46,717 nt of DNA from the sequence record NC_047810.1, one strand, 5' to 3'. This DNA is from Escherichia phage vB_EcoS-IME253. A model generated the notes under the pieces. That model saw only the letters and a program-made list of their open reading frames with translations, searched no databases and was not told where the DNA came from. The position numbers and the translations under genes are program-made. Below, piece by piece: positions 2,863 through 44,157 of this stretch; the stretch's first letter is position 1, and every line of letters begins with the position of its first letter.

Positions 2863-2940
2863 GTGCTTCTTTTACGAGCAGGGCTAATGTATCATTCTTT
2901 TACTAACTTAAACATTGACAAATACATAAAGGTGGATCAC

Positions 2941-3156
2941 ATGAGGGAAGTAATCAACGCCGCTACGGCATCAACTGGCGGTGCTGCGGTAACTGGCGCG
3001 GCAACTGGTCAAATGACTATAGCAATAATCAGCCTTATCGCTCTAATCATTTTTGGAGCTTGGGGTGCTTACTGGAAGTATAAGGATAGCCAGGCAATTC
3101 GACGAGCGCTTGAATCAGGGGATTTAAAGACGGCAATCAAGATAAGGAGCAGGTAA
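2941..3156 (+). CDS. putative holin (pinholin-like, single TMD)
   Basis: ATG 2941 with RBS aaaggtgg; hydrophobic segment TIAIISLIALIIFGAWGAYW; directly upstream of endolysin. Confidence 0.5.
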   Translation: MREVINAATASTGGAAVTGAATGQMTIAIISLIALIIFGAWGAYWKYKDSQAIRRALESGDLKTAIKIRSR

Positions 3157-3642
3157 ATGAAGCAGAAGCTGGTAGTTGGTGCTGCGACCGCTGCGGCAAT
3201 ATACATCGCAGCGCCGCTTATTGAGCTTGTAGAGGGTGTTGAGAATAGGCCTTACATGGACATTGCTGGGGTGAAAACTGTTTGTGCTGGCGTAACTGGT
3301 CCTGACGTAGTTTGGGGTAAGACTTACAGTAACAGGGAGTGCCGGAACCTGCTGGAGAAACACATTCAGATTCATGGGAAGCATGTTCAGGATGCAGTTA
3401 CCTACCCAATTTCACCGCAGACAAGAGCGGCGTTAATCAGCTTTAGCTACAATGTTGGTGGTCATGCTATGAAGAACTCAACAGCAGTTCGACTTATTAA
3501 CCAGGGTAAAGTGGAGCAGGGTTGCAGGGCTCTCGGGGTGTGGAATAAAGCTACCATTAACGGCAAGAAGGTTGTGGTTAAGGGGTTGGTAAATCGCAGG
3601 AATGAGGAGATTAAGTTATGCTTAAGTGGATTGCAGCGTTAG
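3157..3642 (+). CDS. SAR endolysin (phage lysozyme, GH24-like)
   Basis: E-x8-D-x5-T catalytic spacing (E..NRPYMD..GVKT) after a hydrophobic N-terminal signal-anchor; RBS aggag. Confidence 0.7.
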   Translation: MKQKLVVGAATAAAIYIAAPLIELVEGVENRPYMDIAGVKTVCAGVTGPDVVWGKTYSNRECRNLLEKHIQIHGKHVQDAVTYPISPQTRAALISFSYNVGGHAMKNSTAVRLINQGKVEQGCRALGVWNKATINGKKVVVKGLVNRRNEEIKLCLSGLQR

Positions 3643-4007
3643 TAATGTGCGTAGCTTTATCTGGATGTTCAGCAACATCCGCGCTGACCGGATTAATTGG
3701 CAGCAAGCCAGAGATTAGCGCCCAGGCTGGCGCTGAGAACAATAAGGTTGGTGTTGGGTTAACGAACAAGGTTGACTCAAGTAACTCAAGTGAAGCCACG
3801 GTTAAAGATTCTAAGGTTGGGTCACTGGATAGCTCGAGCGGGAAAAAGACTGCTGACAACTCGATTAAGGCCTCAACAATCACTGCTGAAAAGATTGAGA
3901 TCACAAATAACGAATCATCAGCGCTTCCGTGGGTCGGAACAGGAGCAATGGGGTTGCTGGTTCTTATTCTCATGGCATTAATCTTAAGACGTAAAAAAGC
4001 CCCCTAA
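3618..4007 (+). CDS. unimolecular spanin (u-spanin, T1 gp11-like)
   Basis: Lipobox LSGCSA at the N-terminus plus C-terminal TMD LLVLILMALIL; overlaps endolysin 3-prime end. Confidence 0.6.
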   Translation: MLKWIAALVMCVALSGCSATSALTGLIGSKPEISAQAGAENNKVGVGLTNKVDSSNSSEATVKDSKVGSLDSSSGKKTADNSIKASTITAEKIEITNNESSALPWVGTGAMGLLVLILMALILRRKKAP

Positions 4008-7779: not shown

Positions 7780-7916
7780 TGTATACTGTGTAACGATTTG
7801 GCATAAGCATACGCGGCATACGCATTTTTACGCATTAGTTACAATAAAATATCTATATATAACAACCCTTTATCTATATTATTATTATTATATATATCTA
7901 TGTATACTGTGTAACG
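7780..7916. repeat. pair of 16-bp direct repeats tgtatactgtgtaacg flanking the AT-rich core
   Basis: Identical 16-mers at 7780-7795 and 7901-7916; region also rich in GTAAC/GTTAC and GCGTAA/TTACGC pentamers. Confidence 0.55.
7827..7916. repeat. AT-rich 90-bp repeat, copy A (core ttattattattattatatatat)
   Basis: About 85 percent identical by eye to 36941..37030; sits in a 545-bp non-coding divergent region. Confidence 0.6.
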
Positions 7917-9947: not shown

Positions 9948-10081
9948 TTTACGTTCACACATACTACACAGGCAAGTTCAATAGCGTTAAGCATGTTCGC
10001 GTGCACGATAGCTACGATAGCGCAAAGGCGCAATGGCTGGTCCTTGGTGGTGACATTAATTCATATAAAATTGCCGAATAG
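9944..10081 (+). CDS. hypothetical small protein (45 aa)
   Basis: ATGA overlap; in-frame TAG stop is the TAG of the element at 10078. Confidence 0.3.
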   Translation: MIYVHTYYTGKFNSVKHVRVHDSYDSAKAQWLVLGGDINSYKIAE

Positions 10082-21351: not shown

Positions 21352-21742
21352 ATTATCATTAGCAGCAAGGAAATTCGTCAACGATTTGTTGGTAAATGAA
21401 TTTCCTGTCAGATATCCAGTTGCTTGGGAGAACGCTGCCTTTGCGCCTCCTGCGGACGGCTCAATCTGGCTTAAGTACGACTACACAGAAGTTGACACAG
21501 TAACATACGGGTTAAGCAGGAAGTGCAAATACTACGTTGGCATGGTGCAGATTTCAGTGTTCTTCAGTCCGGGGACTGGGATTGATAAGCCGAGACAAAT
21601 AGCTAATCAATTGGCAGAATCTATCGTTGATGGTACAATGCTTGACAGCGGGACCATTTATGAGTCTGGAGTTGTTAACCCGGTTATCAAATCCAAGTCT
21701 GGGTGGTTTATCCCGGTTCGTTTTTATGTTCGTCTAGACTAA
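21341..21742 (+). CDS. tail terminator protein (putative)
   Basis: Position immediately upstream of major tail protein gene. Confidence 0.4.
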   Translation: MQYELSLAARKFVNDLLVNEFPVRYPVAWENAAFAPPADGSIWLKYDYTEVDTVTYGLSRKCKYYVGMVQISVFFSPGTGIDKPRQIANQLAESIVDGTMLDSGTIYESGVVNPVIKSKSGWFIPVRFYVRLD

Positions 21743-21757
21743 CAAAAGGAAAAATAC

Positions 21758-22414
21758 ATGGCCCATCTCAGCAATGGCACGCAGGTCTTCGTAGAAGGCT
21801 CTCGCGGAGCTGCAATCGACGTAACTGCAATTTCTAACGCAGTTACCCCTGTTTTAACTGTATCTGACGCGTCTGGTTTGGTCGTTGGTGATTACCTGCT
21901 TTTCACCTCTTCTGCTTCAACGCTTCTAGCTGACAAGCAAGTTCGAGTGACTGCAATCACTGGTACGTCAGTAACTGTTGAAGGTATTGATACCTCCAGC
22001 ACCACAAAGTTCCCGGCTGGCTTAACTGGTGAAGTTGTCAAGATCACCTCCTGGTTCGAAGTTCCGTGCGTTCAGGACGTATCTACTGACGGTGGCGAAC
22101 AGCAATTCGTTAACTTCCAGTGCTTGTCCGATGACCGTGAACAGCAGATTCCGACCTATAAATCTGCGGTAACTAACACCTTCACCTTCGCTCACGAGTA
22201 CACCAACCCTGTATATCCGGTTCTGCGTAACTACGATGAGTCTGGCCAGGTTGTTGCGATTCGTCTGTTCGTACCTCGAGCTAGCGAAATGCGCTTGCAG
22301 TCCGGCACTATCGCTTTCAACGACACCCCTACCATTGGTGTTAACGAAATCGAAACGGTATCCATCGCAGTATCAATTCGTGGTCGCCTGTCCTCTGTGG
22401 CAGCTGAAGTTTAA
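21758..22414 (+). CDS. major tail protein
   Basis: 218 aa, strong RBS, own terminator, position before chaperones and tape measure. Confidence 0.6.
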   Translation: MAHLSNGTQVFVEGSRGAAIDVTAISNAVTPVLTVSDASGLVVGDYLLFTSSASTLLADKQVRVTAITGTSVTVEGIDTSSTTKFPAGLTGEVVKITSWFEVPCVQDVSTDGGEQQFVNFQCLSDDREQQIPTYKSAVTNTFTFAHEYTNPVYPVLRNYDESGQVVAIRLFVPRASEMRLQSGTIAFNDTPTIGVNEIETVSIAVSIRGRLSSVAAEV

Positions 22415-22421
22415 AACACAA

Positions 22422-22444
22422 ACCCTCTTCGGAGGGTTTTTTAT
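22422..22444 (+). terminator. rho-independent terminator after major tail gene
   Basis: hairpin ccctc-ttcg-gaggg followed by T6. Confidence 0.65.
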
Positions 22445-22447
22445 TGC

Positions 22448-22491
22448 ATAGCACTTTTTGCTAAAGCACTTATTCAGCTTTACTGTATAGT
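22448..22491 (+). promoter_or_regulatory. palindrome-plus-hexamer element (copy 9)
   Basis: atagcactttttgctaaa; TATAGT 22486-22491; leader tctcatcgaaacgaa; next ATG 22525. Confidence 0.5.
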
Positions 22492-22524
22492 TATCTCATC
22501 GAAACGAAATGAGAGATTAAAGAA

Positions 22525-22773
22525 ATGAATAACGTTAAAAACATCATCAAACTTGCTGCAGTTCTTGTTGCTTTTTATGCAGTAGTTCAGATTGTTAACC
22601 CAACTGGTGAGGCTGATGCCAATAGCAAGGCAAACAAATATACCGTTGAGTTCGCTAAAGCTGAGCGAGCATGTCAGGAGCTTGTGGGTAGTAAAGTTGA
22701 CCAAATCATGAAATATGGCAAAGAGGTCTGCAAGGACTCAGCTGCTAAGATTGCAAAAGAAAGCACTAAGTAA
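22525..22773 (+). CDS. small secreted/membrane protein (82 aa) inserted in tail module
   Basis: N-terminal hydrophobic segment IIKLAAVLVAFYAVVQIV; preceded by element 22448-22491 and conserved leader. Confidence 0.45.
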   Translation: MNNVKNIIKLAAVLVAFYAVVQIVNPTGEADANSKANKYTVEFAKAERACQELVGSKVDQIMKYGKEVCKDSAAKIAKESTK

Positions 22774-22812
22774 TAGAATACATACTCACAAACAATAAGA
22801 GGATTAACTAAG

Positions 22813-23127
22813 ATGGCTAAGTTCAAACTTTCACTGGCAGCACTCCCTGACTTCAAGCTTCCGGTAAAATTCAAGCTGGCTAACGACCAGGATGTAGAGG
22901 TTATCTTTACAGTCAAGCATAAGAAAACATCTGAGCTTCAGGAGCTTTTGCAGAAAGAAGACTTGAGTACTAAAGAATTGATTATGGCAATCGCCTCTGA
23001 TTGGGATTTGGAAGAAGAATACAACGAGGATAACGTTAATGAGTTCTCCGACCTGTTCCCAGCGTCAACGGTTGCACTGACTACCGCTTACATGCAGGCA
23101 CTGGCAGGCCAGCGGGTAAAAAACTAA
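22813..23127 (+). CDS. tail assembly chaperone (gpG-like)
   Basis: 104-aa acidic protein upstream of tape measure; ends just after slippery heptamer AAAAAAC. Confidence 0.55.
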   Translation: MAKFKLSLAALPDFKLPVKFKLANDQDVEVIFTVKHKKTSELQELLQKEDLSTKELIMAIASDWDLEEEYNEDNVNEFSDLFPASTVALTTAYMQALAGQRVKN

Positions 23128-23447
23128 AGAGGGCGGTGTATCTACAGTACCAGTCAGATCCAACTGATGCCGAACTGGAAGCTATTGGGATGCGCCGCTC
23201 TGATTACGAAGATGAAGAGCCTGAAGTTTTACACTTCGACGACAACATGATGAAGGCTTGGGACATTTATTGTTCAATGGCCACGCAATGGAGGGTTGGA
23301 GCTAACGGAGCTACAGGGTTAGATTACAACGTGCTAAATTTCCTCTTTAGAGTGTATAATGTCTCAGAAGAAGAATTGGTGCTCAGTGATTTACGCATCC
23401 TTGAAGCTAAGGCTCTCGAGATGATGGATAATCTGAGAAAAAAATAA
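22813..23447 (+). CDS. tail assembly chaperone G-T fusion via -1 programmed frameshift
   Basis: Slippery heptamer A AAA AAC at 23118-23124; -1 frame is open through 23447 (the 23136..23447 ORF). Confidence 0.45.
23118..23124 (+). other. slippery heptamer for -1 ribosomal frameshift
   Basis: aaaaaac in X XXY YYZ register relative to the G reading frame, 1 codon before its stop. Confidence 0.5.
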
Positions 23448-23470
23448 CCCGCTTCGGCGGGTTTTCTATT
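23447..23470 (+). terminator. rho-independent terminator (partial) before tape measure gene
   Basis: hairpin acccgc-ttcg-gcgggt followed by tttctatt. Confidence 0.45.
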
Positions 23471-23482
23471 ATGGAGGCTTAG

Positions 23483-26458
23483 ATGGCAACAAATGAATTA
23501 GCCGGAATCACACTAGCCGTAGACGTCTCGCAGGTAGACAGAGGTACACAGTCCCTGCGGAAGTTCAGGCAGGCAAACCAGCAGGCCGCTTCCGGCATTA
23601 GTGAGTTCGTCAACGCCGAGCAGGTTGCAAAGAATCAAGCCAGAGACACAGCTCGCGCACTGGCTGAACAGCAATCATCTTTGGCTAAATTGCAAACGGC
23701 TATTGACCCAACTGCGGCAAAGTTCCGTAAACTCCAGGAGGCTGCTGTAGGTCTTGATAAGGCTTTCGCGGCTGGAGTAGTTCCTGATGAGGAGTTTTTC
23801 CGCTTAGGTGAGGCGCTTGAAACGCAGAACGCAAAACTTGCTCGTTCACGTGCGGCACTAACTGAAGAGGGTAGAGCGGCGGCGCAAGCTGCAAAGGATA
23901 AGGCAAAGGCAAAGGCTGAAGCGGATAGATTCATTGCATCACTTGAGCGTCAGGCTCAGGCGGCAACATTGACGCGAGAGGAGTACCTAAAGTTACAAGC
24001 GGCCCAGCTTGGCGTAAGTTCTCAGGCGGCGCCTATTATTGACAGAATCGCCGATGCATCACGGAAGGCAAACACCCAGCTAATTGCTCAGAGCAAGGCC
24101 TTTCAACGCTCTGGCTTAAGCGCAGGTCAATACAAGGCTGCAATCTCTCAATTGCCAGCGCAGATTACAGATATTGGGACATCACTTGCTGGCGGCATTC
24201 CGATTTGGCTTATTGCAATTCAGCAAGGTGGACAAATTAAGGATGCATTTGGAGGTATTGGTAACACATTTAGTTTTGCGCTTGCTGCTTTAAACCCGTT
24301 CAACGTAGCAGTTGGGGTTCTCGGTGGCGCGCTTGTTGCTTTAGGCGTCGGTGCTGCGCAGGCTGAAAGTGAATTCAGGGCGTTAAACTCCGCCATTGCG
24401 TTCTCAAACAACTCCACAATCGCATCAATCTCGCAGGTTAGAGAGTTGGTTAGCTCTGTTTCTGATGCCACTGGTGCAACCAGAGGACTTGTGACTAGCA
24501 TCGCAACAAGCCTTGTTGAGCAAGGAAACCTTACGCTAACGCAGATTGACAAGATTACTAAATCAACAGCCAGATGGGCTCAGTTGACAGGTAAGGATGC
24601 AAAGGAAATTACTGGTTACTATAACCAGATTGCGAGCGACCCAATTCAAGGACTTGCTGATTTAGACAAGAGGTTTAACTTCCTTACACAGGGGCAGTTA
24701 ACAACAATTGAAAGATTGAGAGAGACTAGGGGTGAGGTTGAAGCCGTAACTGCTGCTATTGATATATTTAGCAAATCACAAGAGGCAAACCTTAACGATA
24801 TTGCAGCCCAGCTTACTCCTCTTGAATTGGCCTGGAATGACTTCAGGAAGTACATATCTGATGTATGGGATGCAATTAGTCGCAGAACGGTTGGGGCGCT
24901 AAACCTGTTTGTTGACGTAATCGCCGGAACAATTGAGCAAATTAGGGTCTTCATCAACCAGGGTGATGTGCTGATTGGTGAATTCGTAATTAGCGCAACA
25001 CAGGCACTGCAGAACATCCCCGGCCTTGATGGTGTTGGTGATGATGTTGTCAAGGGACAGCAGAAGATTATCGATGCCGCTAAGAAGCAAAACATTGAGC
25101 TAGAGAAGTCTATCAAGGAGCGCGATGCCAGAATCAGAGAAGGAGAACTTGGCTACGTTACTCGCAGAGAAAATCAGAATACCAATGAGCAGTCAGGCAC
25201 GGATGAGGAGTTTGCAAAAAGGAAGAAAGCGCTTCAGGATGAACTTGATGCGATCAAGAAGAGCAGGAAAGAAGAAAATGGTAGGGTTAAAGAGCAAAGA
25301 GACCTTACAATTGGTTACGAATCTGGCGTACTTGCACTACAGGCACAACTCAAGGTGCTTCAGGAAAACAGGGATATTGGCGCAGTAATAAGCAATGAGC
25401 GCAAGCAGTATCTTCAGGAGGTTGCAAAATTCCAGATTCTTGAGCAAAGGCAGCGTGATGGCTCAATAAAAAAAGAGCAAGCAAGACTTCTCATTGAAAA
25501 GGATAAAGTTCTTGAGTTGGCCAGGCAGAAGGCTGAGCTAGGTGATCAGATTGTTTTGCAAGAAAGAGCCAATAAGTTGGCTGAAGATAACCGCAAGAAG
25601 ATTCTTCAGATTAACAATGAGGCAAGCAATATTGATTTGGGTACTGGATTATCATCTCGTGAACTGCAAAGAGCCAAAGAGATTCAGGCTCTTCAGTCCA
25701 ATCAGGTCAATGCTGGTGGCTCTCTTGATGACGTTGATTTTCAGCAGCTACTGGAAGCAAGACGTAACTTTTATGCCCAGGAGGATGCGCTACGTGAAAA
25801 CTGGCTCGCTGGTGTTAATCAATCCTTTGCCAATTGGGCTGAGAGCGCGACGGATGCATTCTCAATTGCTGGAAGTTTAACCACAACAGTCTTTGAAGGC
25901 ATTACCGACCAGATTACAAACCTCGTAACAACTGGCGAAACAAACTTCAGAGAGTTTACTGTTAGCATCCTTAAACAGATTGCTAAGATTGCAACTCAGC
26001 TTCTTGTTGTAAAGGCCATCGAATCTAGCTTAAGTAGCTTCGGTGGTACTGGTGGCGCTATTGGATCGATTGCATCTGGCTTGGGTTTTGCTGGTGGCGG
26101 CTACACCGGCAATGGCGGCAAGTACCAACCGGCAGGAACGGTACACCGTGGTGAATTTGTATTCACAAAAGAAGCGACGAGCCGAATTGGTGTGAAAAAC
26201 CTTTACGCGCTAATGAAAGGTTACGCAAACGGCTGCGCTGTAGGTGGTCCTTCAGGCTATGCAAATGGGGGTTTGGTTTCTGGTGGAACAGATGTTAATG
26301 TTAGCGGAATAACTGTTAACGTTAATGGCGGTGTTGGTAGCGACCCAGAACAAGCCAAAGCATTGCAGAGTGGCGTTAAGGCAATCGTAGCGGAAGAGAT
26401 TGCTCAGTCCTTCCAGCAAGGAGGAAAAGCGTATGCCTATCTGAGAGGTTTTAACTAA
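23483..26458 (+). CDS. tail tape measure protein
   Basis: 991 aa, coiled-coil rich with Gly-rich C-terminal part; downstream of G/G-T chaperones. Confidence 0.8.
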   Translation: MATNELAGITLAVDVSQVDRGTQSLRKFRQANQQAASGISEFVNAEQVAKNQARDTARALAEQQSSLAKLQTAIDPTAAKFRKLQEAAVGLDKAFAAGVVPDEEFFRLGEALETQNAKLARSRAALTEEGRAAAQAAKDKAKAKAEADRFIASLERQAQAATLTREEYLKLQAAQLGVSSQAAPIIDRIADASRKANTQLIAQSKAFQRSGLSAGQYKAAISQLPAQITDIGTSLAGGIPIWLIAIQQGGQIKDAFGGIGNTFSFALAALNPFNVAVGVLGGALVALGVGAAQAESEFRALNSAIAFSNNSTIASISQVRELVSSVSDATGATRGLVTSIATSLVEQGNLTLTQIDKITKSTARWAQLTGKDAKEITGYYNQIASDPIQGLADLDKRFNFLTQGQLTTIERLRETRGEVEAVTAAIDIFSKSQEANLNDIAAQLTPLELAWNDFRKYISDVWDAISRRTVGALNLFVDVIAGTIEQIRVFINQGDVLIGEFVISATQALQNIPGLDGVGDDVVKGQQKIIDAAKKQNIELEKSIKERDARIREGELGYVTRRENQNTNEQSGTDEEFAKRKKALQDELDAIKKSRKEENGRVKEQRDLTIGYESGVLALQAQLKVLQENRDIGAVISNERKQYLQEVAKFQILEQRQRDGSIKKEQARLLIEKDKVLELARQKAELGDQIVLQERANKLAEDNRKKILQINNEASNIDLGTGLSSRELQRAKEIQALQSNQVNAGGSLDDVDFQQLLEARRNFYAQEDALRENWLAGVNQSFANWAESATDAFSIAGSLTTTVFEGITDQITNLVTTGETNFREFTVSILKQIAKIATQLLVVKAIESSLSSFGGTGGAIGSIASGLGFAGGGYTGNGGKYQPAGTVHRGEFVFTKEATSRIGVKNLYALMKGYANGCAVGGPSGYANGGLVSGGTDVNVSGITVNVNGGVGSDPEQAKALQSGVKAIVAEEIAQSFQQGGKAYAYLRGFN

Positions 26459-26501
26459 TAGCACTAAATGGTAAAGCCAAAAGGATTTGGCTTGCTACAA
26501 T
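26458..26501 (+). promoter_or_regulatory. palindrome-plus-hexamer element (copy 10, variant)
   Basis: atagcactaaatggtaaa after TAA of tape measure gene; TACAAT 26496-26501 (22-nt spacer); next ATG 26530 (HNH). Confidence 0.4.
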
Positions 26502-26529
26502 TAGTGAAAATTAACATGAGGTTTAAAAG

Positions 26530-27000
26530 ATGAACTGGAATTATGTTTTTGAGTATAGAGAGGGTGTTCTTTATTGGAAGGTAAAACCAGCCATACAATA
26601 CAATATTGGCGATGTTGCTGGTTTCTTTTGTGAAAAGAGAGGTTACATAATCGTTCAATACAGGCGTGTAAAGGTAATGGCCCATAGGGTTGTATGGGAA
26701 ATGTTTAATGGAAGAATAGCTGATGACATGGAAATTGATCACATTGACCACTCTAGAAAAAACAACAACATATCAAACCTAAGACTGGTAACGAAGAGTG
26801 ATAACATGAAAAACAAAAGCATGTACTCATCAAATAAAACTGGCGTTGTCGGGGTTAGTTACTGCAAAACAAAGAAAAAATTTATATCAAAGATAGGTAA
26901 GAGAATTCTATTAACAACAAGCAATTTTGAAGAGGCTGTAAAAGCGAGAAAAATCGCAGAGATAGCCCTTAATTATCACAAAAATCACGGGAGTAAATAA
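26530..27000 (+). CDS. HNH homing endonuclease with AP2-like domain
   Basis: YWK..HR..WE...EIDHIDH..NNN..NLR.V..SDN motif; inserted between tape measure and tail tip gene M. Confidence 0.65.
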   Translation: MNWNYVFEYREGVLYWKVKPAIQYNIGDVAGFFCEKRGYIIVQYRRVKVMAHRVVWEMFNGRIADDMEIDHIDHSRKNNNISNLRLVTKSDNMKNKSMYSSNKTGVVGVSYCKTKKKFISKIGKRILLTTSNFEEAVKARKIAEIALNYHKNHGSK

Positions 27001-30703: not shown

Positions 30704-33700
30704 ATGGCTGAAGAGATTAAGATTTATGGTGCCAAGGGTGGTAGCCAAAAGCAGCATCAACCAGTGGAGCAGGAAGATAACCTAATTTCACTTAACAAGG
30801 TTAAGGTTCTTTTGGCGGTTGCTGACGGTGAGGTGGATCCTAACTTCTCATTGAAGGATTTATACCTTGCTGACGTTCCGGTACAAAATCAGGATGGTAG
30901 CTACAACTATGAAGGTGTTCGCGCTGAGTTCCGTGCTGGCACGCAGTATCAGGACTATATCGCCGGGCTTGACGGTGCTAACTCAGAGATTCAGGCATCC
31001 AGAGAAATCAAGAACGATACCCCGTACATCATTGCAGTTAACAATACTCAGCTTTCAGCAATTCGAGTTAAGCTATTCTGGCCTCGACTGGTTAAGCAAG
31101 AAAGCAATGGAGACCTGAACGGAACAACCTGCGAGTATGCAATTGACCTTTCTGTTAATGGTGGCGCTTACCAGGAATACACTCGCGGAGTTGCTAACGG
31201 AAAGACCACTACAGGTTACGACCGAAGCATTCGCGTAAACCTTCCGGCAGAATTTGATAGCGCGCTTGTTCGCATCCGTAAGATTACGCCGGATTCAACA
31301 AGTAGCACCCTGGTTAACGGTATGCAGATTACAACCTATCAGGAAGTAATTGACGCTAAATTCCGCTATCCGCTTACGGCTCTGGTTTACGTTGAGTTTG
31401 GTTCTGACTTGTTCCCTAACGGCATCCCAACAATCTCAATCAAGAAGAGATGGAAGTTGATTCAGGTTCCTACAAACTATAACCCTGAAACCAGAACTTA
31501 TAGCGGCACATGGAATGGTCTATTCAAGATGGCATGGTCAAACAACCCAGCATGGGTTCTTTATGACCTAGTAACAAACCGCCGTTACGGACTTGACCAG
31601 CGAGAGCTGGGTGTAGAGATTGATAAGTGGGGCCTGTACGAAGCTGCACAATTCTGTGACCAGATGGTTCCAGATGGCAAGGGTGGCTTAGAGCCGCGTT
31701 ACCTTTGCGATATGGTTGTACAGAACAAGGTTGAGGCTTACACGCTAATTCGTGATATCTGTTCAATCTTTCGCGGCCTGACTTTCTATGACGGCGAAAA
31801 GATTGGCATCGTGGTTGATAAGCCTCGCAACCCATCTTACATCTTCACCAATGATAACGTTGTAAACGGATTGTTCAGTCGCACATTTGCCAGCGATAAA
31901 AGTCTTTACACCACGGCAAACGTTCAGTTTGATGATGTAGAGAACAACTATCAGCAGGATGTTGAGCCAGTATTTGAGCTTGAGGCTACTCGCAGGTTCG
32001 GGTTTAATCCAGTCGACCTTACGGCAATTGGCTGCACTCGCAGAAGTGAAGCAAACAGACGCGGCAGATGGCTCCTAAAAACCAACCTGAGAAGCGAAAC
32101 TATCAGCTTCACTACCGGGTTGGAAGGCATGATTCCGATGATTGGCGAGGTTATTGCAGTTAATGATGCGGCATGGTCGAGCAACTATCAGTTGAACCTT
32201 TCCGGCCGCATTGAATCAGTGCAGGGGCTACAGGTTTTTACACCGTTTAAAGTTGACGCAGCGCCGGGTGACAGAATTCTTCTTAACAAGCCAGACGGAA
32301 GCCCGGAGGCAAGAACTATTGCCAGTGTTTCGGAAGACGGCAGAACAATCAACCTTAACACTGCTTTCAGTTTTGTAGCTCAGCCAGACACTGTGTTCGC
32401 AATTGATAAGGATAACCTTGCGCTTCAGCAGTATGTTGTGACCGGGATTCAAAAGGCAGATACTGACGGCTCTGATTCATTTCAGTACACGATTACTGCG
32501 GTGGAGTATGACCCTAACAAGTATGACGAGATTGACTACGGCGTTAATATTGTTGACCGTCCAACTTCAGTCGTAGAGCCTGATAGATTGTCGCCACCTG
32601 AGAATTTAACAGTGTCAAGCTACAGCAAGGTTGTTCAAGGATTATCAGTTGAGACGATGGTTATCGGGTGGGATAAAGCGCCATACGCTAAAACCTACAA
32701 TGTTCAGTGGAGAAAAGAGAATGGCAACTGGATTAACGTACCAAGAACAGCTAGCACAGAGGTTGATATCGAAGGTATTTACGCAGGAATTTATGACGTT
32801 AGGGTTCGCAGCGTATCAGATACTGAAAACGTGTCTGCCTGGTCTGGTATTGTAACGGTATCGCTAACTGGCAAGATTGGTCGCCCATCGGCACCTACGG
32901 TTATCACGGCGTCAACTGATGAAGTATTTGGTATCCGTGTTAAATGGGGATTCCCTGAAGGCTCTGGCGATACTGCTTACACTGAGCTTCAGCAGGTTCC
33001 AGATAATGGTGATGGTACTTACAATCCTGATAATGCAAGTTTGCTTACGTTACTTCCTTATCCTGCCTACGAATACTGGCATACGCCAATTCAGCCAGGT
33101 AAGGTGATTTGGTATCGCGCAAGATTGATTGACAGAATCGGAAATACCTCTGATTGGTCTAATTTCGCAAGAGGCATGAGTACTGACGACGCAAACATTA
33201 TCAATGATTTCATCAAGGTTGATATTGAAGGTTCAGAAGGATTCAAATACCTCGAGCAGAATGCGATTCAAAAGAATCAGGACATTCAGAATCAAGCTGA
33301 GGCAATTATCGAGAACGCACTGGCTAATGATGGCGATGTTCGCAGAATGACAAAGGAGAACGGCAAGCGTAAGGCTGAATATGTTCAGGCTGTGAATCTC
33401 ATAGCCGATGAAACTCAGGCGCGCGTAGAGGCTCTAACGGCCCTTAAGGCGCAGATAGATGATGAAGTTGTAGCATCGATTACAGAAGTTCAGACTGCAT
33501 TAGCCACAGAGACAGAAGCAAGGACTACTGCAGACACGACTCTATCAGCAAGACTTGGTGAAAATGAGGCGGCTTTAAACCAGAAGCTGGACGCATTCTC
33601 TAATGCCACATCGACTGGTGTGCAGTACGGAATTAGTCTTGGCCTGAAATACAATGGACAGACTTATTCATCCGGTATGAGCATGGAGCTTGTCGGCACT

Positions 33701-34062: not shown

Positions 34063-34434
34063 ATGGCTGGTTTGTATGGTTGGGAGATGTACGATTCTGC
34101 GGGGCGGCTTGTAGCTGACAATAGCAGCATAATGAGCAGGAGGCTATTCACTTATAGCGTGCCACTGATAAGGGCTTTATCTGCAAACATACCATGGGAA
34201 GTCTCATTTAATGTTAACTTCTCAAATGGAACGCCTTATGCGCATTGCAATACCAGAACAGGGGTGGTGGTCCCTGCATCTACTAACTGGTATCCAGTAT
34301 CACCTGATATAATAATATCTGGAAATGCAGTTACACTCAGGTATACAAACAGGCATGTTTCCTATCCGGACGATCTTGGGTACATACTTGCAGTTGGTGG
34401 TGTTGATGTTCACTTAGGAGTTTATAATAAATGA
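34063..34434 (+). CDS. hypothetical tail-associated protein (123 aa)
   Basis: ORF immediately downstream of J. Confidence 0.4.
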   Translation: MAGLYGWEMYDSAGRLVADNSSIMSRRLFTYSVPLIRALSANIPWEVSFNVNFSNGTPYAHCNTRTGVVVPASTNWYPVSPDIIISGNAVTLRYTNRHVSYPDDLGYILAVGGVDVHLGVYNK

Positions 34435-35228
34435 GTGATTATGGTGTTGAACTAATAAATGACTATGGTTTAAAGGTTGCTGACGCAGAGGATGTAAATT
34501 ACGTACTAAGAAGTTCTGGTACATTTAATGATTCAAATTTCTACTCATATGCAAACTCCACATCTGCAATTAGCCTCATGACCACAGGAATGAATTCGCC
34601 TCTTCTATTTCTAAAGATGAACGAAAGTAGGTCAAGGATAAGCCAGAAGCCTGGAGTTAACAAAATATCACCTGATTTTGTTAACCCAAATACCACAATA
34701 ACAAAGACAAGCATAGACCTATTCAAGTGGTGGAACATACCGCTAGGAACTGTAGAGTATTACATATTTGACAAGTGGATCCCGCCAGAAAGAAGTGATT
34801 ATGGAATGCAGATATTTAATGAATCTGGTTCTATAATCTTTGATTCTGGCTGGTACTTCCTCAAACTTAGGGATGTGCTATGGCTTGATCCAAGTTATCC
34901 AAACCATTCAGATCAGGAAGGTGGTAGTAACTGGACTAACGTCGGGAATATTGTCAACTCCGCGAACGTATCAAACTCAGCATTATCAATGCCTGTTGGT
35001 AGGGGGTGGGTTGAAACATCATTGCAGGGTGGGTACTACTATAATGAATGCTGTCACCTTGACTCATCCGGTAATCTATTTATATCCATAATACCTACAG
35101 GTATATACCTTGATGTTTCACCAACTGGCGGCTGGGTTGGCAATATGAGGACGCAAGTTATGGTTTGCGACACCTCGAGGCTGCCTCTTAATTACAATCC
35201 AGTTGAGATAAGAAAGGAAAACAAATAA
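34431..35228 (+). CDS. candidate receptor-binding protein (265 aa)
   Basis: Position downstream of J and convergent with a lipoprotein gene; no motif confirmation. Confidence 0.35.
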   Translation: MSDYGVELINDYGLKVADAEDVNYVLRSSGTFNDSNFYSYANSTSAISLMTTGMNSPLLFLKMNESRSRISQKPGVNKISPDFVNPNTTITKTSIDLFKWWNIPLGTVEYYIFDKWIPPERSDYGMQIFNESGSIIFDSGWYFLKLRDVLWLDPSYPNHSDQEGGSNWTNVGNIVNSANVSNSALSMPVGRGWVETSLQGGYYYNECCHLDSSGNLFISIIPTGIYLDVSPTGGWVGNMRTQVMVCDTSRLPLNYNPVEIRKENK

Positions 35229-35232
35229 AAAT

Positions 35233-35256
35233 AAGGCCCTTAATGGGCCTTCTTGT
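35233..35256. terminator. bidirectional terminator between convergent RBP candidate and lipoprotein genes
   Basis: A-rich run, hairpin aggccc-ttaat-gggcct, T-rich run. Confidence 0.5.
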
Positions 35257-35425
35257 TAAAACAATATCCAGCTGGTAAAACCGAATAAAGATTTTGATTT
35301 ACCTCTCCATTGCTGTATTCACAACCTCTAATTGTAACTGAGTAGTCACTGATAAGAACTATAGTTCTTTCACCGCCTGAACAACCAGCTAAAATCATTG
35401 CAGTGATAACGATTAATTTTTTCAT
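35240..35425 (-). CDS. small lipoprotein (candidate superinfection-exclusion protein)
   Basis: Signal peptide with lipobox LAGCSG; 61 aa; convergent to RBP candidate. Confidence 0.5.
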   Translation of the reverse strand: MKKLIVITAMILAGCSGGERTIVLISDYSVTIRGCEYSNGEVNQNLYSVLPAGYCFNKKAH

Positions 35426-36840: not shown

Positions 36841-36940
36841 TTATCGACAATTTCACCATAAATCACAGTTACACGTAACCGATGTAACTCGATGTATACA
36901 ATCTCATCCGCGGGAAATGATATACGCGCTGTTACGCCAA

Positions 36941-37030
36941 TTTACGCATTGGTTACATTAAAATATCTATATATATCAACCTTTTACTCTTATTATTATT
37001 ATTATATATATTACTGTGTATATCATGTAA
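36941..37030. repeat. AT-rich 90-bp repeat, copy B
   Basis: tttacgcattggttacattaaaatatctatatatatcaacc...ttattattattattatatatat; matches copy A. Confidence 0.6.
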
Positions 37031-39258: not shown

Positions 39259-39681
<423 letters not shown>

Positions 39682-42637: not shown

Positions 42638-42655
42638 ATAGCACGAATTGCTAAG
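42638..42655 (+). promoter_or_regulatory. solo palindrome copy (no -10-like hexamer at expected spacing); candidate operator
   Basis: atagcacgaattgctaag about 30 bp upstream of the tailspike start codon (minus strand); expected hexamer position reads GGCATA. Confidence 0.35.
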
Positions 42656-43683: not shown

Positions 43684-44157
43684 TTACTCTTTAGCTTTTC
43701 GTGCTGCCTCATTAGCGGCCTTGATCTTTCTCCATGAACGACACTCTGGTTTGGTTGCTAACTCGGACTCAGTAACCACACGCAGCATGTGACGCTTCTT
43801 GCACCGTAATGTCAGCGGCTTTCCGTTGCCGTCGAATTGCAGGTCTGGTCGGCAGAATGTAGCGCGAAAACCTTCTCCATTTCGTTTGTAGTAGTTGTGC
43901 GATAGCTGAGCACCACGTGCAGAAATCATACCACGCTTAAACCATTCCTCTACAGCCTGTGGTGTTACCTTTAACTGCTTTGCGATATTCGCCTTTGTGC
44001 CGAAGAAATCAAGAACAATCTCCAGTCGCGCGCGCAACCCTGCCCTTACTTCATCTTTCAAAACGTAGTAACCTGAAGGTCGTTTTCGTTGTTTTTTGTC
44101 TTCAGTGCGGACAGTTCCGTTATTACCGTTGATTGTTCTCTTGTCGACTGTATTCAT
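43684..44157 (-). CDS. HTH DNA-binding protein (putative transcriptional regulator)
   Basis: Basic N-terminus and HTH-like IAKQLKVTPQAVEEWFKRG; sits in divergent region. Confidence 0.4.
   Translation of the reverse strand: MNTVDKRTINGNNGTVRTEDKKQRKRPSGYYVLKDEVRAGLRARLEIVLDFFGTKANIAKQLKVTPQAVEEWFKRGMISARGAQLSHNYYKRNGEGFRATFCRPDLQFDGNGKPLTLRCKKRHMLRVVTESELATKPECRSWRKIKAANEAARKAKE

What the first reader, a model, noticed from the sequence alone, without database searches (positions are those of the whole stretch)
22448..22773. Motif-driven small secreted/membrane protein gene inserted between major tail and chaperone genes
An 82-aa ORF with an N-terminal hydrophobic signal or anchor sits directly behind a full palindrome-hexamer-leader unit, just after the major-tail terminator. 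A membrane or periplasmic protein expressed from inside the tail module is a candidate superinfection-exclusion or host-modulating moron.
Basis: partly seen in the sequence, partly recalled or inferred. Interest (0 to 1): 0.5.

Follow-up and report, generated by a model that had tools for sequence, protein, structure and literature searches.

The report
Small exported accessory gene in tail module
A T1/Rtp-like coliphage carries a real but dispensable 82-codon gene for a small exported protein, inserted with its own promoter-like unit between the tail-tube and tail-chaperone genes; the gene type in this slot matches the type of tape measure protein, so it is most likely a blocker of DNA entry by later-arriving phages.

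Summary
ORF 22525-22773 (82 aa) follows the major-tail terminator (22420-22445) and one complete copy of the T1-like repeat unit: palindrome 22448-22465, TATAGT 22486-22491, leader 22497-22507. It is a real gene. It is 82 aa in about 80 Braunvirinae coliphages, dN/dS is 0.06-0.31, and two Cys are invariant. It has no detectable relative outside this clade in 1.84 billion representative proteins, Pfam, PDB or PADLOC.

The N-terminus looks like a Sec export signal: net +2, a 15-residue hydrophobic core, NPTG, then an AxA-type site in 24 of 24 sequences. The remainder is predicted helical.

Other Drexlerviridae subfamilies join the tail-tube and chaperone genes directly, so this is an insertion. 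Rtp keeps the same terminator-promoter-leader-RBS cassette but carries a 128-aa lipoprotein instead. CY1 adds a 46-aa two-TM peptide. Two otherwise complete genomes carry amber alleles, so the gene is dispensable.

New here: the slot cargo co-varies with a swappable central module of the tape measure protein, across at least two mosaic backgrounds. By analogy with HK97 gp15 and TP-J34 Ltp, I favour post-adsorption superinfection exclusion (confidence about 0.4). The function is inferred, not shown.

The parts
21758..22414 (+). Major tail (tube) protein gene; upstream boundary of the slot
   Evidence: PF08813 E 4e-68; phrog_584 E 5e-87
22420..22445 (+). Intrinsic terminator of the major tail gene: 8-bp stem, TTCG loop, then TTTATT
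   Evidence: Terminator scan. Conserved in all Braunvirinae compared. Annotated as a terminator in the EC3a record.
22448..22465 (+). T1-like direct repeat ATAGCACTTTTTGCTAAA, containing the palindrome TAGCA-N5-TGCTA
   Evidence: Perfect match to the pattern. 27 matches against 6.1 expected. Published for TLS as aaATAGCACnnnTTGnTAAAA, about 76 nt upstream of start codons, role unknown (PMC11447400).
22486..22491 (+). -10-like hexamer TATAGT at the fixed 38-nt offset from the repeat start
   Evidence: 13 of 16 repeat copies have a TAnnnT hexamer at exactly this offset
22497..22507 (+). Conserved leader CATCGAAACGA (probable 5' end of the transcript; inferred)
   Evidence: Shared by several repeat copies in the window and by the same slot in Rtp, EC3a, DTL, BEK3, ACG-M12 and TR1
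22511..22516 (+). Shine-Dalgarno-like GAGAGA, 8 nt before the ATG
   Evidence: Read from the sequence. Same GAGAGATT...ATG layout at other repeat-linked genes.
22525..22773 (+). 82-aa ORF (phrog_22925, unknown function): the finding itself
   Evidence: dN/dS 0.06-0.31. Only its own cluster found among 1.84 billion representatives.
22552..22596 (+). Codons 10-24, LAAVLVAFYAVVQIV: hydrophobic core of the signal peptide or anchor, preceded by K5 and K9
   Evidence: Kyte-Doolittle 15-residue mean 2.55. Nearly invariant in the family.
22612..22620 (+). Codons 30-32 (A-D-A): candidate signal peptidase I site, cleavage before N33
   Evidence: The -3/-1 rule is met at this position in 22 of 24 family members. 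All 24 have at least one compatible site 4-9 residues after the core.
22672..22731 (+). Segment bounded by the two invariant cysteine codons: C50 (22672-22674) and C69 (22729-22731)
   Evidence: Invariant in alignments A1 and A2, including members with 44-52% identity over this domain
22751..22779 (+). Sigma-70-like promoter TTGCAA-17-TAGAAT overlapping the ORF's 3' end and stop codon. Its -10 corresponds to the ancestral chaperone-gene promoter (TGTTATAAT in Sadiya).
   Evidence: Promoter scan, 9 of 12 matches. Junction comparison. Promoter annotated at the same place in EC3a.
22813..23447 (+). Tail assembly chaperone genes (22813-23127 PF08748; 23136-23447 DUF1799); downstream boundary of the slot
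   Evidence: Annotated as a frameshifted G/GT-like pair in OzMSK.
24300..25450 (+). Central variable module of the tape measure gene (CDS 23483-26458; about aa 260-660). Type A here; it co-varies with the slot cargo.
   Evidence: Type A against type B: 8-25% aa identity here, against at least 90% over most of the flanking parts of the protein. Nucleotide profiles. Distribution.

Best explanation
The ORF is a non-essential accessory gene carried on a small expression cassette: repeat, -10-like hexamer, leader, RBS. The cassette was inserted between the major-tail terminator and the ancestral promoter of the tail-chaperone genes in Braunvirinae (Rtp-like) coliphages.

Its product is exported by the Sec pathway. 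It is either cleaved after about residue 32 to release a basic, helical periplasmic peptide of about 50 residues, or retained as an N-in/C-out inner-membrane protein. I favour cleavage slightly. Either way the helical part with its two conserved cysteines lies in the periplasm.

There it most likely acts after adsorption. It would prevent a second phage with the same family of tape-measure central module from building or using its DNA conduit across the periplasm and inner membrane. The target could be the ejected tape measure protein itself or the host factor that module needs. The Rtp34-family lipoprotein would do the same job for phages with the other tape-measure module.

Shown: gene reality, insertion, cassette sharing, dispensability, export-type N-terminus, cargo/tape-measure association. 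Inferred: export itself, timing of expression, and the exclusion function.
For: 1. Real gene under purifying selection, with invariant C50 and C69.

2. Export-type N-terminus: net +2 n-region, 15-residue core, NPTG, and a -3/-1 site in 24 of 24 sequences. An invariant Cys pair suits an oxidising compartment (inference).

3. Insertion: absent from Rogunavirinae, Tempevirinae and Webervirus. T1 gp41 and gp40 have consecutive accession numbers.

4. Rtp shares a nearly identical 113-nt terminator-to-ATG cassette, but the cargo is a 128-aa lipoprotein with an LLAGC lipobox. TR1 has a 126-aa homologue at 31.5% identity. CY1 adds a 46-aa two-TM peptide. The slot therefore collects envelope proteins.

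5. Dispensable: independent amber alleles, E47 to TAG and E67 to TAG, in otherwise complete 42.7-kb and 46.7-kb genomes.

6. Cargo matches the tape-measure central module. All ORF82 phages examined have type-A-family modules (window, JeanPiccard, 12210I, ACG-M12, AN_ECEAS, L046-L049). Seventy-four records are at least 90% identical to the window's module. All six records with a type B module carry the lipoprotein family (Rtp twice, AugustePiccard, RobRod40, MM01, TR1).

7. The pairing holds in different backgrounds. AugustePiccard's MTP, TAC and T proteins are 98-100% identical to the window's. TR1 has AN_ECEAS-type chaperone genes (88-94% nt) but an Rtp-type tape measure gene.

8. Precedents: HK97 gp15 is a small inner-membrane moron product in the tail operon that blocks DNA injection. 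[quoted passage not shown] Tape measure changes overcome the block imposed by TP-J34 Ltp (PMC3594210; PMC10883804).

9. Receptor-level exclusion is already provided by a Cor-like lipoprotein at 35240-35425, leaving a post-adsorption layer open.
Against: - No phenotype or expression data exist for any family member. All are annotated 'hypothetical'.

- The association rests on few independent type-B lineages, perhaps three, and the modules are only about 1.5 kb apart. Linkage or shared descent could explain part of it. For AugustePiccard a single block exchange cannot be excluded, because the intervening region is conserved in all lineages.

- Within type A the two do not co-evolve tightly. ACG-M12 has a 52-54% ORF82 with a 92.5% tape measure protein. 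L047 and L048 have an 84% ORF82 with a central module about 55% identical.

- TR1's lipoprotein is only 31.5% identical to Rtp34, yet its module is 95% identical to Rtp's.

- Both tape-measure module families occur in other subfamilies that have no slot gene.

- The phage is virulent, and the gene lies in a late-looking module, whereas exclusion genes of T4 and T5 are expressed early (from my own knowledge). Timing here is unknown.

- Structure models are ambiguous: a hairpin in the full-length model (pLDDT 66) against one long helix for residues 29-82 (pLDDT 87). No structural or sequence relative was found.
Confidence: 0.4

Rival explanations
1. An exported accessory protein with an envelope function other than self-exclusion. 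Examples: modulating a host periplasmic or inner-membrane process, adjusting lysis timing, excluding unrelated phages or colicins, or countering an envelope-based host defence. The link to the tape-measure type would then be genetic linkage.
For: The export-type N-terminus, dispensability, hot-spot behaviour of the slot and lack of any homologue fit this as well as they fit exclusion. ORF82 sequence type does not track the tape-measure subtype within family A.
Against: It does not explain why cargo family and tape-measure module family match in all 85-odd genomes, including the mosaic TR1 and AugustePiccard. The lysis cassette is complete and 18.5 kb away (2863-4007: holin, endolysin, spanin). 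There is no PADLOC hit, though that library holds host defence-system models, not phage counter-defence proteins.
Confidence: 0.3
2. A cytoplasmic tail-morphogenesis helper matched to the tape measure protein. The hydrophobic N-terminal helix would shield the tape measure's hydrophobic segments (about aa 225-295) during assembly.
For: Position next to the chaperone genes. Co-variation with the tape-measure module that begins just after its hydrophobic region.
Against: The alternative cargo in the same slot is a lipoprotein with a canonical lipobox, which cannot act in the cytoplasm. Amber alleles occur in complete genomes. Other Drexlerviridae with related tape measure proteins assemble tails without any slot gene. 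The n-region, h-region and AxA layout is that of an export signal.
Confidence: 0.1
3. What matters is the promoter cassette, which restarts transcription of the chaperone and tape measure genes after the strong tail-tube terminator. The ORF would be a passenger with little function of its own.
For: There is no terminator between the ORF and the chaperone gene. In Rtp the ancestral -10 before the chaperone gene is missing, so expression there must come from the upstream cassette. The first 28 codons also show low dS, which suggests nucleotide-level constraint or gene conversion with the cassette.
Against: dN/dS is 0.06-0.31 over the whole ORF. Length is fixed at 82 aa. The Cys pair is invariant in members with only 44-52% identity over that domain. 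In the window and most relatives a sigma-70-like promoter for the chaperone gene is retained at the ORF's 3' end.
Confidence: 0.07

Closest known systems
HK97 gp15 (the first named moron; YebO-like small inner-membrane superinfection exclusion protein)
   Same: A small protein with an N-terminal hydrophobic segment, encoded by an insertion inside the tail operon next to the chaperone and tape measure genes. It blocks genome injection without touching the receptor. Sensitivity depends on the tail tube / tape measure region of the incoming phage (PMC3594210; PMC10883804). Here the cargo type matches the tape-measure module.
   Different: No sequence relationship: no Pfam hit, and only its own cluster in the exhaustive search. 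The slot differs (tube/chaperone here, chaperone/tape measure in HK97). The phage is virulent, not temperate. There is no terminator of its own. Probably cleaved or C-out, with a Cys pair. Function untested.
Rtp34-family lipoproteins (Rtp rtp34, AugustePiccard bas01_0018, RobRod40, MM01, TR1): function unknown
   Same: They occupy exactly the same slot behind a nearly identical terminator-repeat-hexamer-leader-RBS cassette. They are exported to the envelope and act as alternative alleles of the locus.
   Different: Unrelated sequence, 126-128 aa, with a lipobox (outer-membrane lipoprotein predicted, Asn at +2). Always paired with the type B tape-measure module.
TP-J34 Ltp and lactococcal Sie2009 (membrane or lipoprotein exclusion factors of siphophages)
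   Same: Envelope-anchored small proteins that block DNA injection. Tape measure changes overcome the Ltp block (PMC10883804).
   Different: Gram-positive hosts, prophage-expressed, no sequence similarity.
Receptor-blocking exclusion lipoproteins: T1 Cor, T5 Llp, Rtp45
   Same: Small phage-encoded periplasm-facing proteins of virulent siphophages, some with a disulphide. Rtp45 binds LptDE from the periplasmic side (bioRxiv 10.1101/2025.07.07.663478).
   Different: These are lipoproteins encoded next to the receptor-binding protein gene. ORF82 has no lipobox and lies elsewhere. The window has its own Cor-like gene at 35240-35425. Slot cargo does not follow receptor type: AugustePiccard and JeanPiccard both use LptD but carry different cargo (PMC13035648).
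T4 Imm and Spackle (from my own knowledge)
   Same: Small envelope-located exclusion proteins of a virulent phage, about 83 and 97 aa, acting after adsorption. Spackle has a cleaved signal peptide and is helical.
   Different: No sequence match to any PDB chain at E up to 10. No tail lysozyme domain in this tape measure protein.

Membership tests
Moron (as described in 'The moron comes of age', PMC3594210) | Inserted between two genes that are adjacent in related phages | tested here: met
   The tube and chaperone genes are adjacent (73-99 nt apart) in Sadiya, C119, damhaus and KLPN1. Insert boundaries are about 22447-22773.
Moron (as described in 'The moron comes of age', PMC3594210) | Own promoter | tested here: inconclusive
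   A complete repeat plus -10-like hexamer unit with fixed geometry lies upstream. The repeat's role is unproven in the literature (PMC11447400), and the standard sigma-70 scan does not call it.
Moron (as described in 'The moron comes of age', PMC3594210) | Own terminator downstream | tested here: not met
   No terminator-like site on the + strand between 22773 and 22813. The nearest + strand terminators are 22420-22439 upstream and 23446-23463.
Moron (as described in 'The moron comes of age', PMC3594210) | Nucleotide composition different from the neighbours | tested here: inconclusive
   GC is 40.6% against 44.2% for the window and 45-50% for the neighbours, but this is only the 22nd percentile of 249-nt windows.
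Moron (as described in 'The moron comes of age', PMC3594210) | Expressed from a repressed prophage | not testable with these tools
   Relatives are described as lytic or virulent (MSK paper title, PMC8421802; OzMSK paper, PMC13035648), and none of the annotated relatives I read lists an integrase or repressor. The feature does not apply.
HK97 gp15 / YebO family | Sequence homology to YebO or gp15 | tested here: not met
   No Pfam family at E up to 0.1. The profile search of 1.84 billion representatives found only its own cluster.
HK97 gp15 / YebO family | Blocks DNA injection in a tape-measure-dependent way | not testable with these tools
   Only indirect evidence: cargo and tape-measure module co-vary.
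Sec signal peptide (signal peptidase I type) | Positive n-region, 7-15-residue hydrophobic h-region, helix breaker, small residues at -3 and -1 | tested here: met
   K5 and K9. L10-V24 with Kyte-Doolittle mean 2.55. NPTG. ADA|N at 30-32. At least one rule-compatible site in 24 of 24 sequences. This was a heuristic check only; SignalP and DeepTMHMM were not available.
Sec signal peptide (signal peptidase I type) | Actual cleavage and periplasmic release, as opposed to an uncleaved signal anchor | not testable with these tools
   For an anchor: the N-terminal 28 residues are the most conserved part. For cleavage: the short core is interrupted by Q22 (K22 in the 12210I group) and the AxA site is conserved.
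Bacterial lipoprotein (Cor / Llp / Rtp45-type exclusion factors) | Lipobox L-x-x-C at the end of the signal peptide | tested here: not met
   The first Cys is residue 50. The Rtp34-family cargo (LLAGC, LTGC) and the window's Cor-like ORF (ILAGC) do have one.
Holin / spanin (lysis proteins) | Membership of the lysis cassette and a match to lysis families | tested here: not met
   The only PHROG hit is phrog_22925, unknown function. Holin, endolysin and spanin are encoded at 2863-4007.

The most novel reading that the evidence does not exclude
The slot between the tail-tube and chaperone genes of Rtp-like phages is a cassette locus holding interchangeable periplasmic 'keys': the ORF82 family or the Rtp34-family lipoprotein. 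Each key would be specific for one family of swappable central tape-measure modules.

If so, these virulent phages carry a modular, tape-measure-matched system that blocks DNA entry by their own kind. That would identify tape measure residues about 260-660 as the part exposed and vulnerable in the periplasm during siphophage DNA delivery.
Probability: 0.3. Interest if true: 0.65.

Novelty: new variant of a known kind. Interest (0 to 1): 0.5.

Why it matters
How siphophage DNA crosses the periplasm and inner membrane is poorly understood. So is how the exclusion proteins that act at this step work.

A matched pair would give a directly testable genetic system in easily handled coliphages. One side is the small exported protein family. 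The other is a defined central module of about 400 residues in the tape measure protein. The system comes with natural alternative alleles, natural amber mutants and natural mosaics.

There is also a practical angle. Rtp-like phages repeatedly contaminate laboratory and fermentation cultures (PMC13035648; the CY1 and TR1 records give 'fermentation broth' as source). A small gene that blocks their DNA entry could protect production strains without altering the essential receptor LptD.

If the exclusion idea fails, the finding is still a well-delimited example of an accessory-gene hot spot in a virulent phage's tail module.

Tried and rejected
- Remote homology. Pfam, NCBIfam, PADLOC, PHROGs, PDB sequences, a profile search of 1.84 billion representatives and Foldseek against BFVD gave nothing beyond the family's own PHROG, which has unknown function.

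- Structure. The full-length AF2 model is of low confidence (pLDDT 66, a TM helix plus a hairpin). Residues 29-82 alone come out as one long helix (pLDDT 87). The two disagree, so I drew no fold conclusion. By my own residue counting, a tight hairpin turning at residues 55-56 would not bring C50 and C69 together.

- RNA element. No Rfam match of note, and the leader folds no better than shuffles (z 0.34).

- Wider sampling by DNA pattern. The leader pattern found nothing in the JGI metagenome contigs. The repeat-hexamer pattern found only six IMG/VR contigs, all already-known genomes. A first attempt used the wrong spacer length and found nothing. A chaperone-protein scan of IMG/VR gave only 13 loci.

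- Receptor link. Rejected. AugustePiccard (lipoprotein cargo) and JeanPiccard (ORF82) both use LptD.

- Lysis role. Rejected on location and family.

- Composition shift as evidence of horizontal origin. Too weak to use.

- Lpp-like reading. The mature part is a helix of about 50 residues ending in an invariant Lys, which recalls Braun's lipoprotein. No sequence similarity to any PDB chain supports this, and the last codons overlap the downstream promoter. I left it as a curiosity.

- The primary HK97 gp15 paper (PMC3430355) is not held. I relied on the authors' commentary and on the P22 SieA paper.
Full report
**What the window is.** The region 21700-23500 is 99.8% identical to Escherichia phage phiA2-1, 99.2% to ZL19, and about 95% to IME542, OzMSK and MSK. 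These are Rtp-like T1-type siphophages; annotated relatives are classed as Drexlerviridae, subfamily Braunvirinae. Gene order around the finding is:
- major tail protein, 21758-22414 (PF08813)
- the 82-codon ORF, 22525-22773
- tail assembly chaperone, 22813-23127 (PF08748)
- its DUF1799 partner, 23136-23447
- tape measure protein, 23483-26458

**Checking the observation.**
- The tail-tube gene ends in an 8-bp stem-loop with a TTCG loop and a T-run (22420-22445).
- Two bases later comes ATAGCACTTTTTGCTAAA (22448-22465), which contains the palindrome TAGCA-N5-TGCTA.
- TATAGT lies at 22486-22491, CATCGAAACGA at 22497-22507, GAGAGA at 22511-22516 and the ATG at 22525.

The repeat is not a chance match. 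With up to three mismatches there are 27 matches against 6.1 +/- 2.1 in shuffles. Sixteen good copies lie upstream of genes in the direction of transcription. Thirteen of the 16 have a -10-like hexamer starting exactly 38 nt from the repeat start.

This repeat has been published. The TLS re-annotation reports a 21-nt repeat, aaATAGCACnnnTTGnTAAAA, about 76 nt upstream of start codons. It is also seen in T1, Rtp and Rogue1. Its role is unresolved: stoperator, enhancer site or UP-like element (PMC11447400). Here the ATG is 77 nt from the repeat start.

If transcription starts about 7 nt after the hexamer, the palindrome centre lies near -42. The TTGCTA within the repeat is 22 nt from the hexamer, too far to be a normal -35 element. 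'Motif-driven' is therefore a fair description, but promoter activity is inferred.

**Is it a gene?** The ORF alone proves nothing, but conservation does.
- 39 protein clusters were found in a 5.8-billion-protein collection. Thirty-five of them are 82 aa long, and the long contigs that carry them are phage-sized.
- 80 GenBank phage records carry it.
- It has one PHROG of unknown function, matched end to end.
- Nei-Gojobori dN/dS against seven relatives is 0.06-0.31. Synonymous divergence reaches saturation while the reading frame and length are kept.
- A profile search of 1.84 billion representative proteins found only its own cluster plus one spurious hit. Pfam, NCBIfam, PADLOC and PDB sequences gave nothing.

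It is a clade-restricted orphan family.

**The protein.** The sequence is MNNVKNIIK-LAAVLVAFYAVVQIV-NPTGEADA-NSK.... It has a net +2 n-region and a 15-residue hydrophobic core (Kyte-Doolittle mean 2.55). A Pro/Gly helix breaker follows, then small residues at -3 and -1 (A30, A32).
- All 24 family sequences I collected have at least one site compatible with signal peptidase I within 4-9 residues of the core. Twenty-two have it at positions 30-32.
- Charges place the N-terminus inside and the C-terminus outside.
- The N-terminal 28 residues are the most conserved part of the protein. That is unusual for a cleaved signal and argues for a retained anchor.
- Against an anchor: the core is short and interrupted by Q22 (K22 in the 12210I group). 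In addition, synonymous divergence is also reduced in these codons. This suggests gene conversion together with the upstream cassette.

I cannot decide between a cleaved and an anchored form. I lean slightly towards cleavage.

The remainder (residues 30-81) is predicted helical. It folds as a hairpin in the low-confidence full-length model and as one long helix when modelled alone. C50 and C69 are invariant even in members with only 44-52% identity over this domain. That fits a disulphide, within or between chains, in the periplasm.

**It is an insertion, and the slot is a hot spot.** In Rogunavirinae (Sadiya, C119), Tempevirinae (damhaus) and Webervirus (KLPN1) the tube gene is followed after 73-99 nt by the chaperone gene. 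In T1 the two genes have consecutive accession numbers.

Sadiya's intergenic sequence is terminator, TGTTATAAT, leader, RBS. In the window the matching -10 (TAGAAT, 22774-22779) lies immediately after the ORF's stop codon. A TTGCAA lies 17 nt upstream, inside the last codons.

Other phages use the same slot differently.
- Rtp has a nearly identical 113 nt from the tube gene's stop codon to the ATG. A different gene follows: rtp34, 128 aa, beginning MKAIIAIMATLLLAGC, a canonical lipoprotein signal.
- RobRod40, MM01 and AugustePiccard carry the same lipoprotein.
- TR1 carries a 126-aa homologue at 31.5% identity.
- CY1, TR2, TR3 and Rao1 carry an extra 46-aa two-TM peptide ORF. In CY1 it lies in this slot ahead of the ORF82 homologue.

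Two otherwise complete phage genomes carry independent GAG-to-TAG mutations in the ORF, at codons 47 and 67. The gene is therefore dispensable for propagation. GC content is slightly low (40.6% against 44.2%) but not distinctive.

**New finding: the cargo matches the tape measure protein.**
- Tape measure proteins of ORF82 phages are 990-1021 aa. Those of lipoprotein phages are 920-923 aa.
- The two kinds are at least 90% identical over most of residues 1-260 and 680-991. They are essentially unrelated (8-25% identity) between about 260 and 660.
- This variable central module begins just after the hydrophobic segments of the TMP_2 domain. It has no enzymatic domain.
- MTP, TAC and the T-part are 91-100% identical across the two cargo classes, apart from shorter T-part annotations in RobRod40 and JeanPiccard. 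For example, window against AugustePiccard gives 98.6%, 98.1% and 100%. Their central modules and cargoes differ completely.
- TR1 is an independent mosaic. The 5' part of its tube gene is 100% identical to the window. Its chaperone genes are 88-94% identical to AN_ECEAS, an ORF82 phage. Its tape measure gene is 81-93% identical to Rtp. Its slot holds the lipoprotein family.
- In the phage collection all six records with a type B module at 80% identity or more carry the lipoprotein family.
- Every ORF82 phage I examined has a type-A-family module. This includes divergent subtypes at about 55% identity in AN_ECEAS and L046-L048.
- I found no exception in about 85 genomes.

Caveats:
- There are perhaps only three independent type-B lineages.
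- The two loci are only about 1.5 kb apart.
- Within type A, ORF82 divergence does not follow module divergence (ACG-M12, L047 and L048).
- Both module families occur in subfamilies that have no slot gene.

**Mechanism.** An envelope-exported, dispensable protein cannot be a tail part. Its kind nevertheless follows the kind of tape measure protein, the protein thought to form the DNA conduit across the periplasm. The simplest reading is post-adsorption superinfection exclusion aimed at phages with the same module family. The target would be either the ejected tape measure protein or the host factor it uses.

Known precedents fit closely.
- HK97 gp15 is a small inner-membrane moron product encoded between the chaperone and tape measure genes. 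[quoted passage not shown]
- Tape measure changes overcome the injection block imposed by TP-J34 Ltp (PMC10883804).
[quoted passage not shown] So low identity between TR1's lipoprotein and Rtp34 is not fatal to the idea.

Receptor-level exclusion is covered elsewhere. The window has a 61-aa lipoprotein gene with an ILAGC lipobox at 35240-35425 (minus strand). It matches the Cor PHROG (E 7e-5). In Rtp the lipoprotein Rtp45 blocks LptDE. Cargo type does not follow receptor type: AugustePiccard and JeanPiccard both use LptD.

I put the exclusion reading at about 0.4. Another envelope role is at about 0.3. A cytoplasmic assembly role is at about 0.1. A passenger of the promoter cassette is below 0.1.

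**Comparison and novelty.** The arrangement works like a moron. It lacks a terminator of its own, has no clear composition signature, and sits in a virulent phage. The protein is unrelated in sequence to gp15/YebO, Cor, Llp, Rtp45, Imm or Spackle. It is best filed as a new variant of a known kind: a small exported accessory protein encoded inside a tail module.

All database records call the gene hypothetical. The repeat motif in front of it is already described. What is new is the cassette-like allelism of the slot and its match to a swappable tape-measure module. This makes a specific hypothesis testable with phages already in collections: Bas01 against Bas02, and Rtp.

**Verdict.** Interest is moderate, at 0.5.

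Noticed in passing
window 35240-35425 (-), with 34063-34434 and 34431-35228 (+): A 61-aa lipoprotein ORF (MKKLIVITAMILAGC...) matches the Cor superinfection-exclusion PHROG (E 7e-5). It lies after the J-like tail-tip gene and two ORFs of unknown function. This layout resembles the T1 Cor locus with its two upstream genes, and differs from the Rtp/OzMSK RBP-Rtp45 arrangement on the minus strand.
   Followed up: partly
window 24300-25450 (within the tape measure gene 23483-26458): The central part of the tape measure protein, about 400 residues, behaves as an exchangeable module. Two unrelated families (A and B, 8-25% identity) are flanked by regions at least 90% identical over most of their length. 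There are also several A subtypes at about 55% identity, and total lengths of 920-1021 aa.
   Followed up: yes
window, 16 sites (637, 2549, 6907-, 7553-, 9242, 10078, 10850, 14427, 22448, 26458, 35615-, 36840-, 38492, 42638, 44170, 46671): The T1-like repeat ATAGCAC-N4-TGCTAAA has a rigid 38-nt offset to a -10-like hexamer. Several copies also have a short GC-rich hairpin between repeat and hexamer, or an inverted repeat flanking the hexamer (for example CCGCAAGGATGCGG at 6907- and 35615-, and GGGGTAA...TTACCCC at 10078). The copy at 42638 has no hexamer and is followed by a terminator-like hairpin.
   Followed up: partly
window 43684-44157 (-): A 157-aa helix-turn-helix transcriptional regulator (phrog_2856; T1 gp23-like in the OzMSK annotation). 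It is a candidate binder of the 5-N5-5 palindrome in the repeat. This was not tested.
   Followed up: no
window 26458-27000: An HNH endonuclease gene (26530-27000) sits directly after the tape measure gene, behind its own repeat copy (26458). Rtp, TR1 and RobRod40 carry HNH genes at other positions in the tail module, so these look like mobile insertions.
   Followed up: no
L012 (CY1) 1041-1181; also TR2, TR3, Rao1; phiA2-1 32135-32272: A 46-aa two-TM peptide ORF (MILIGMLTAFFYYATGLTFWVSLGAAIGTYFVSALLALIVRALRNR) lies in the same slot in CY1. TR2, TR3 and Rao1 carry the same peptide at positions consistent with the slot. It lies at a different place in phiA2-1, the window's closest relative, and is absent from the window. 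It is unannotated in most records.
   Followed up: partly
L008 (damhaus) 2240-2258: In Tempevirinae phage damhaus the same repeat lies in inverted orientation about 10 nt upstream of the chaperone gene's RBS. This does not fit a simple promoter element.
   Followed up: no
window 7819-7906 and 36933-37020: An 88-nt AT-rich direct repeat (83% identity; TACGC..TTTACGCATT.GTTACA.TAAAATATCTATATATA...) lies in two divergent-promoter regions about 29 kb apart.
   Followed up: no
window 39577-39657: A CAG/CAA (polyglutamine-coding) repeat near the 3' end of the 140-aa ORF 39259-39681. By position this corresponds to the single-stranded DNA-binding protein gene of OzMSK.
   Followed up: no
window 22509-22520: The conserved leader contains a three-codon mini-ORF (ATG AGA GAT TAA) ending 4 nt before the ORF82 start codon. 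It is also present in Rtp and EC3a.
   Followed up: no
L036 (GCA_011682075.1, contig VSMK01000220.1, 46,669 nt): A complete Rtp-like coliphage genome sits in an assembly whose protein is labelled Nitratidesulfovibrio liaohensis. It is most likely a laboratory phage contaminant of that sequencing project.
   Followed up: no
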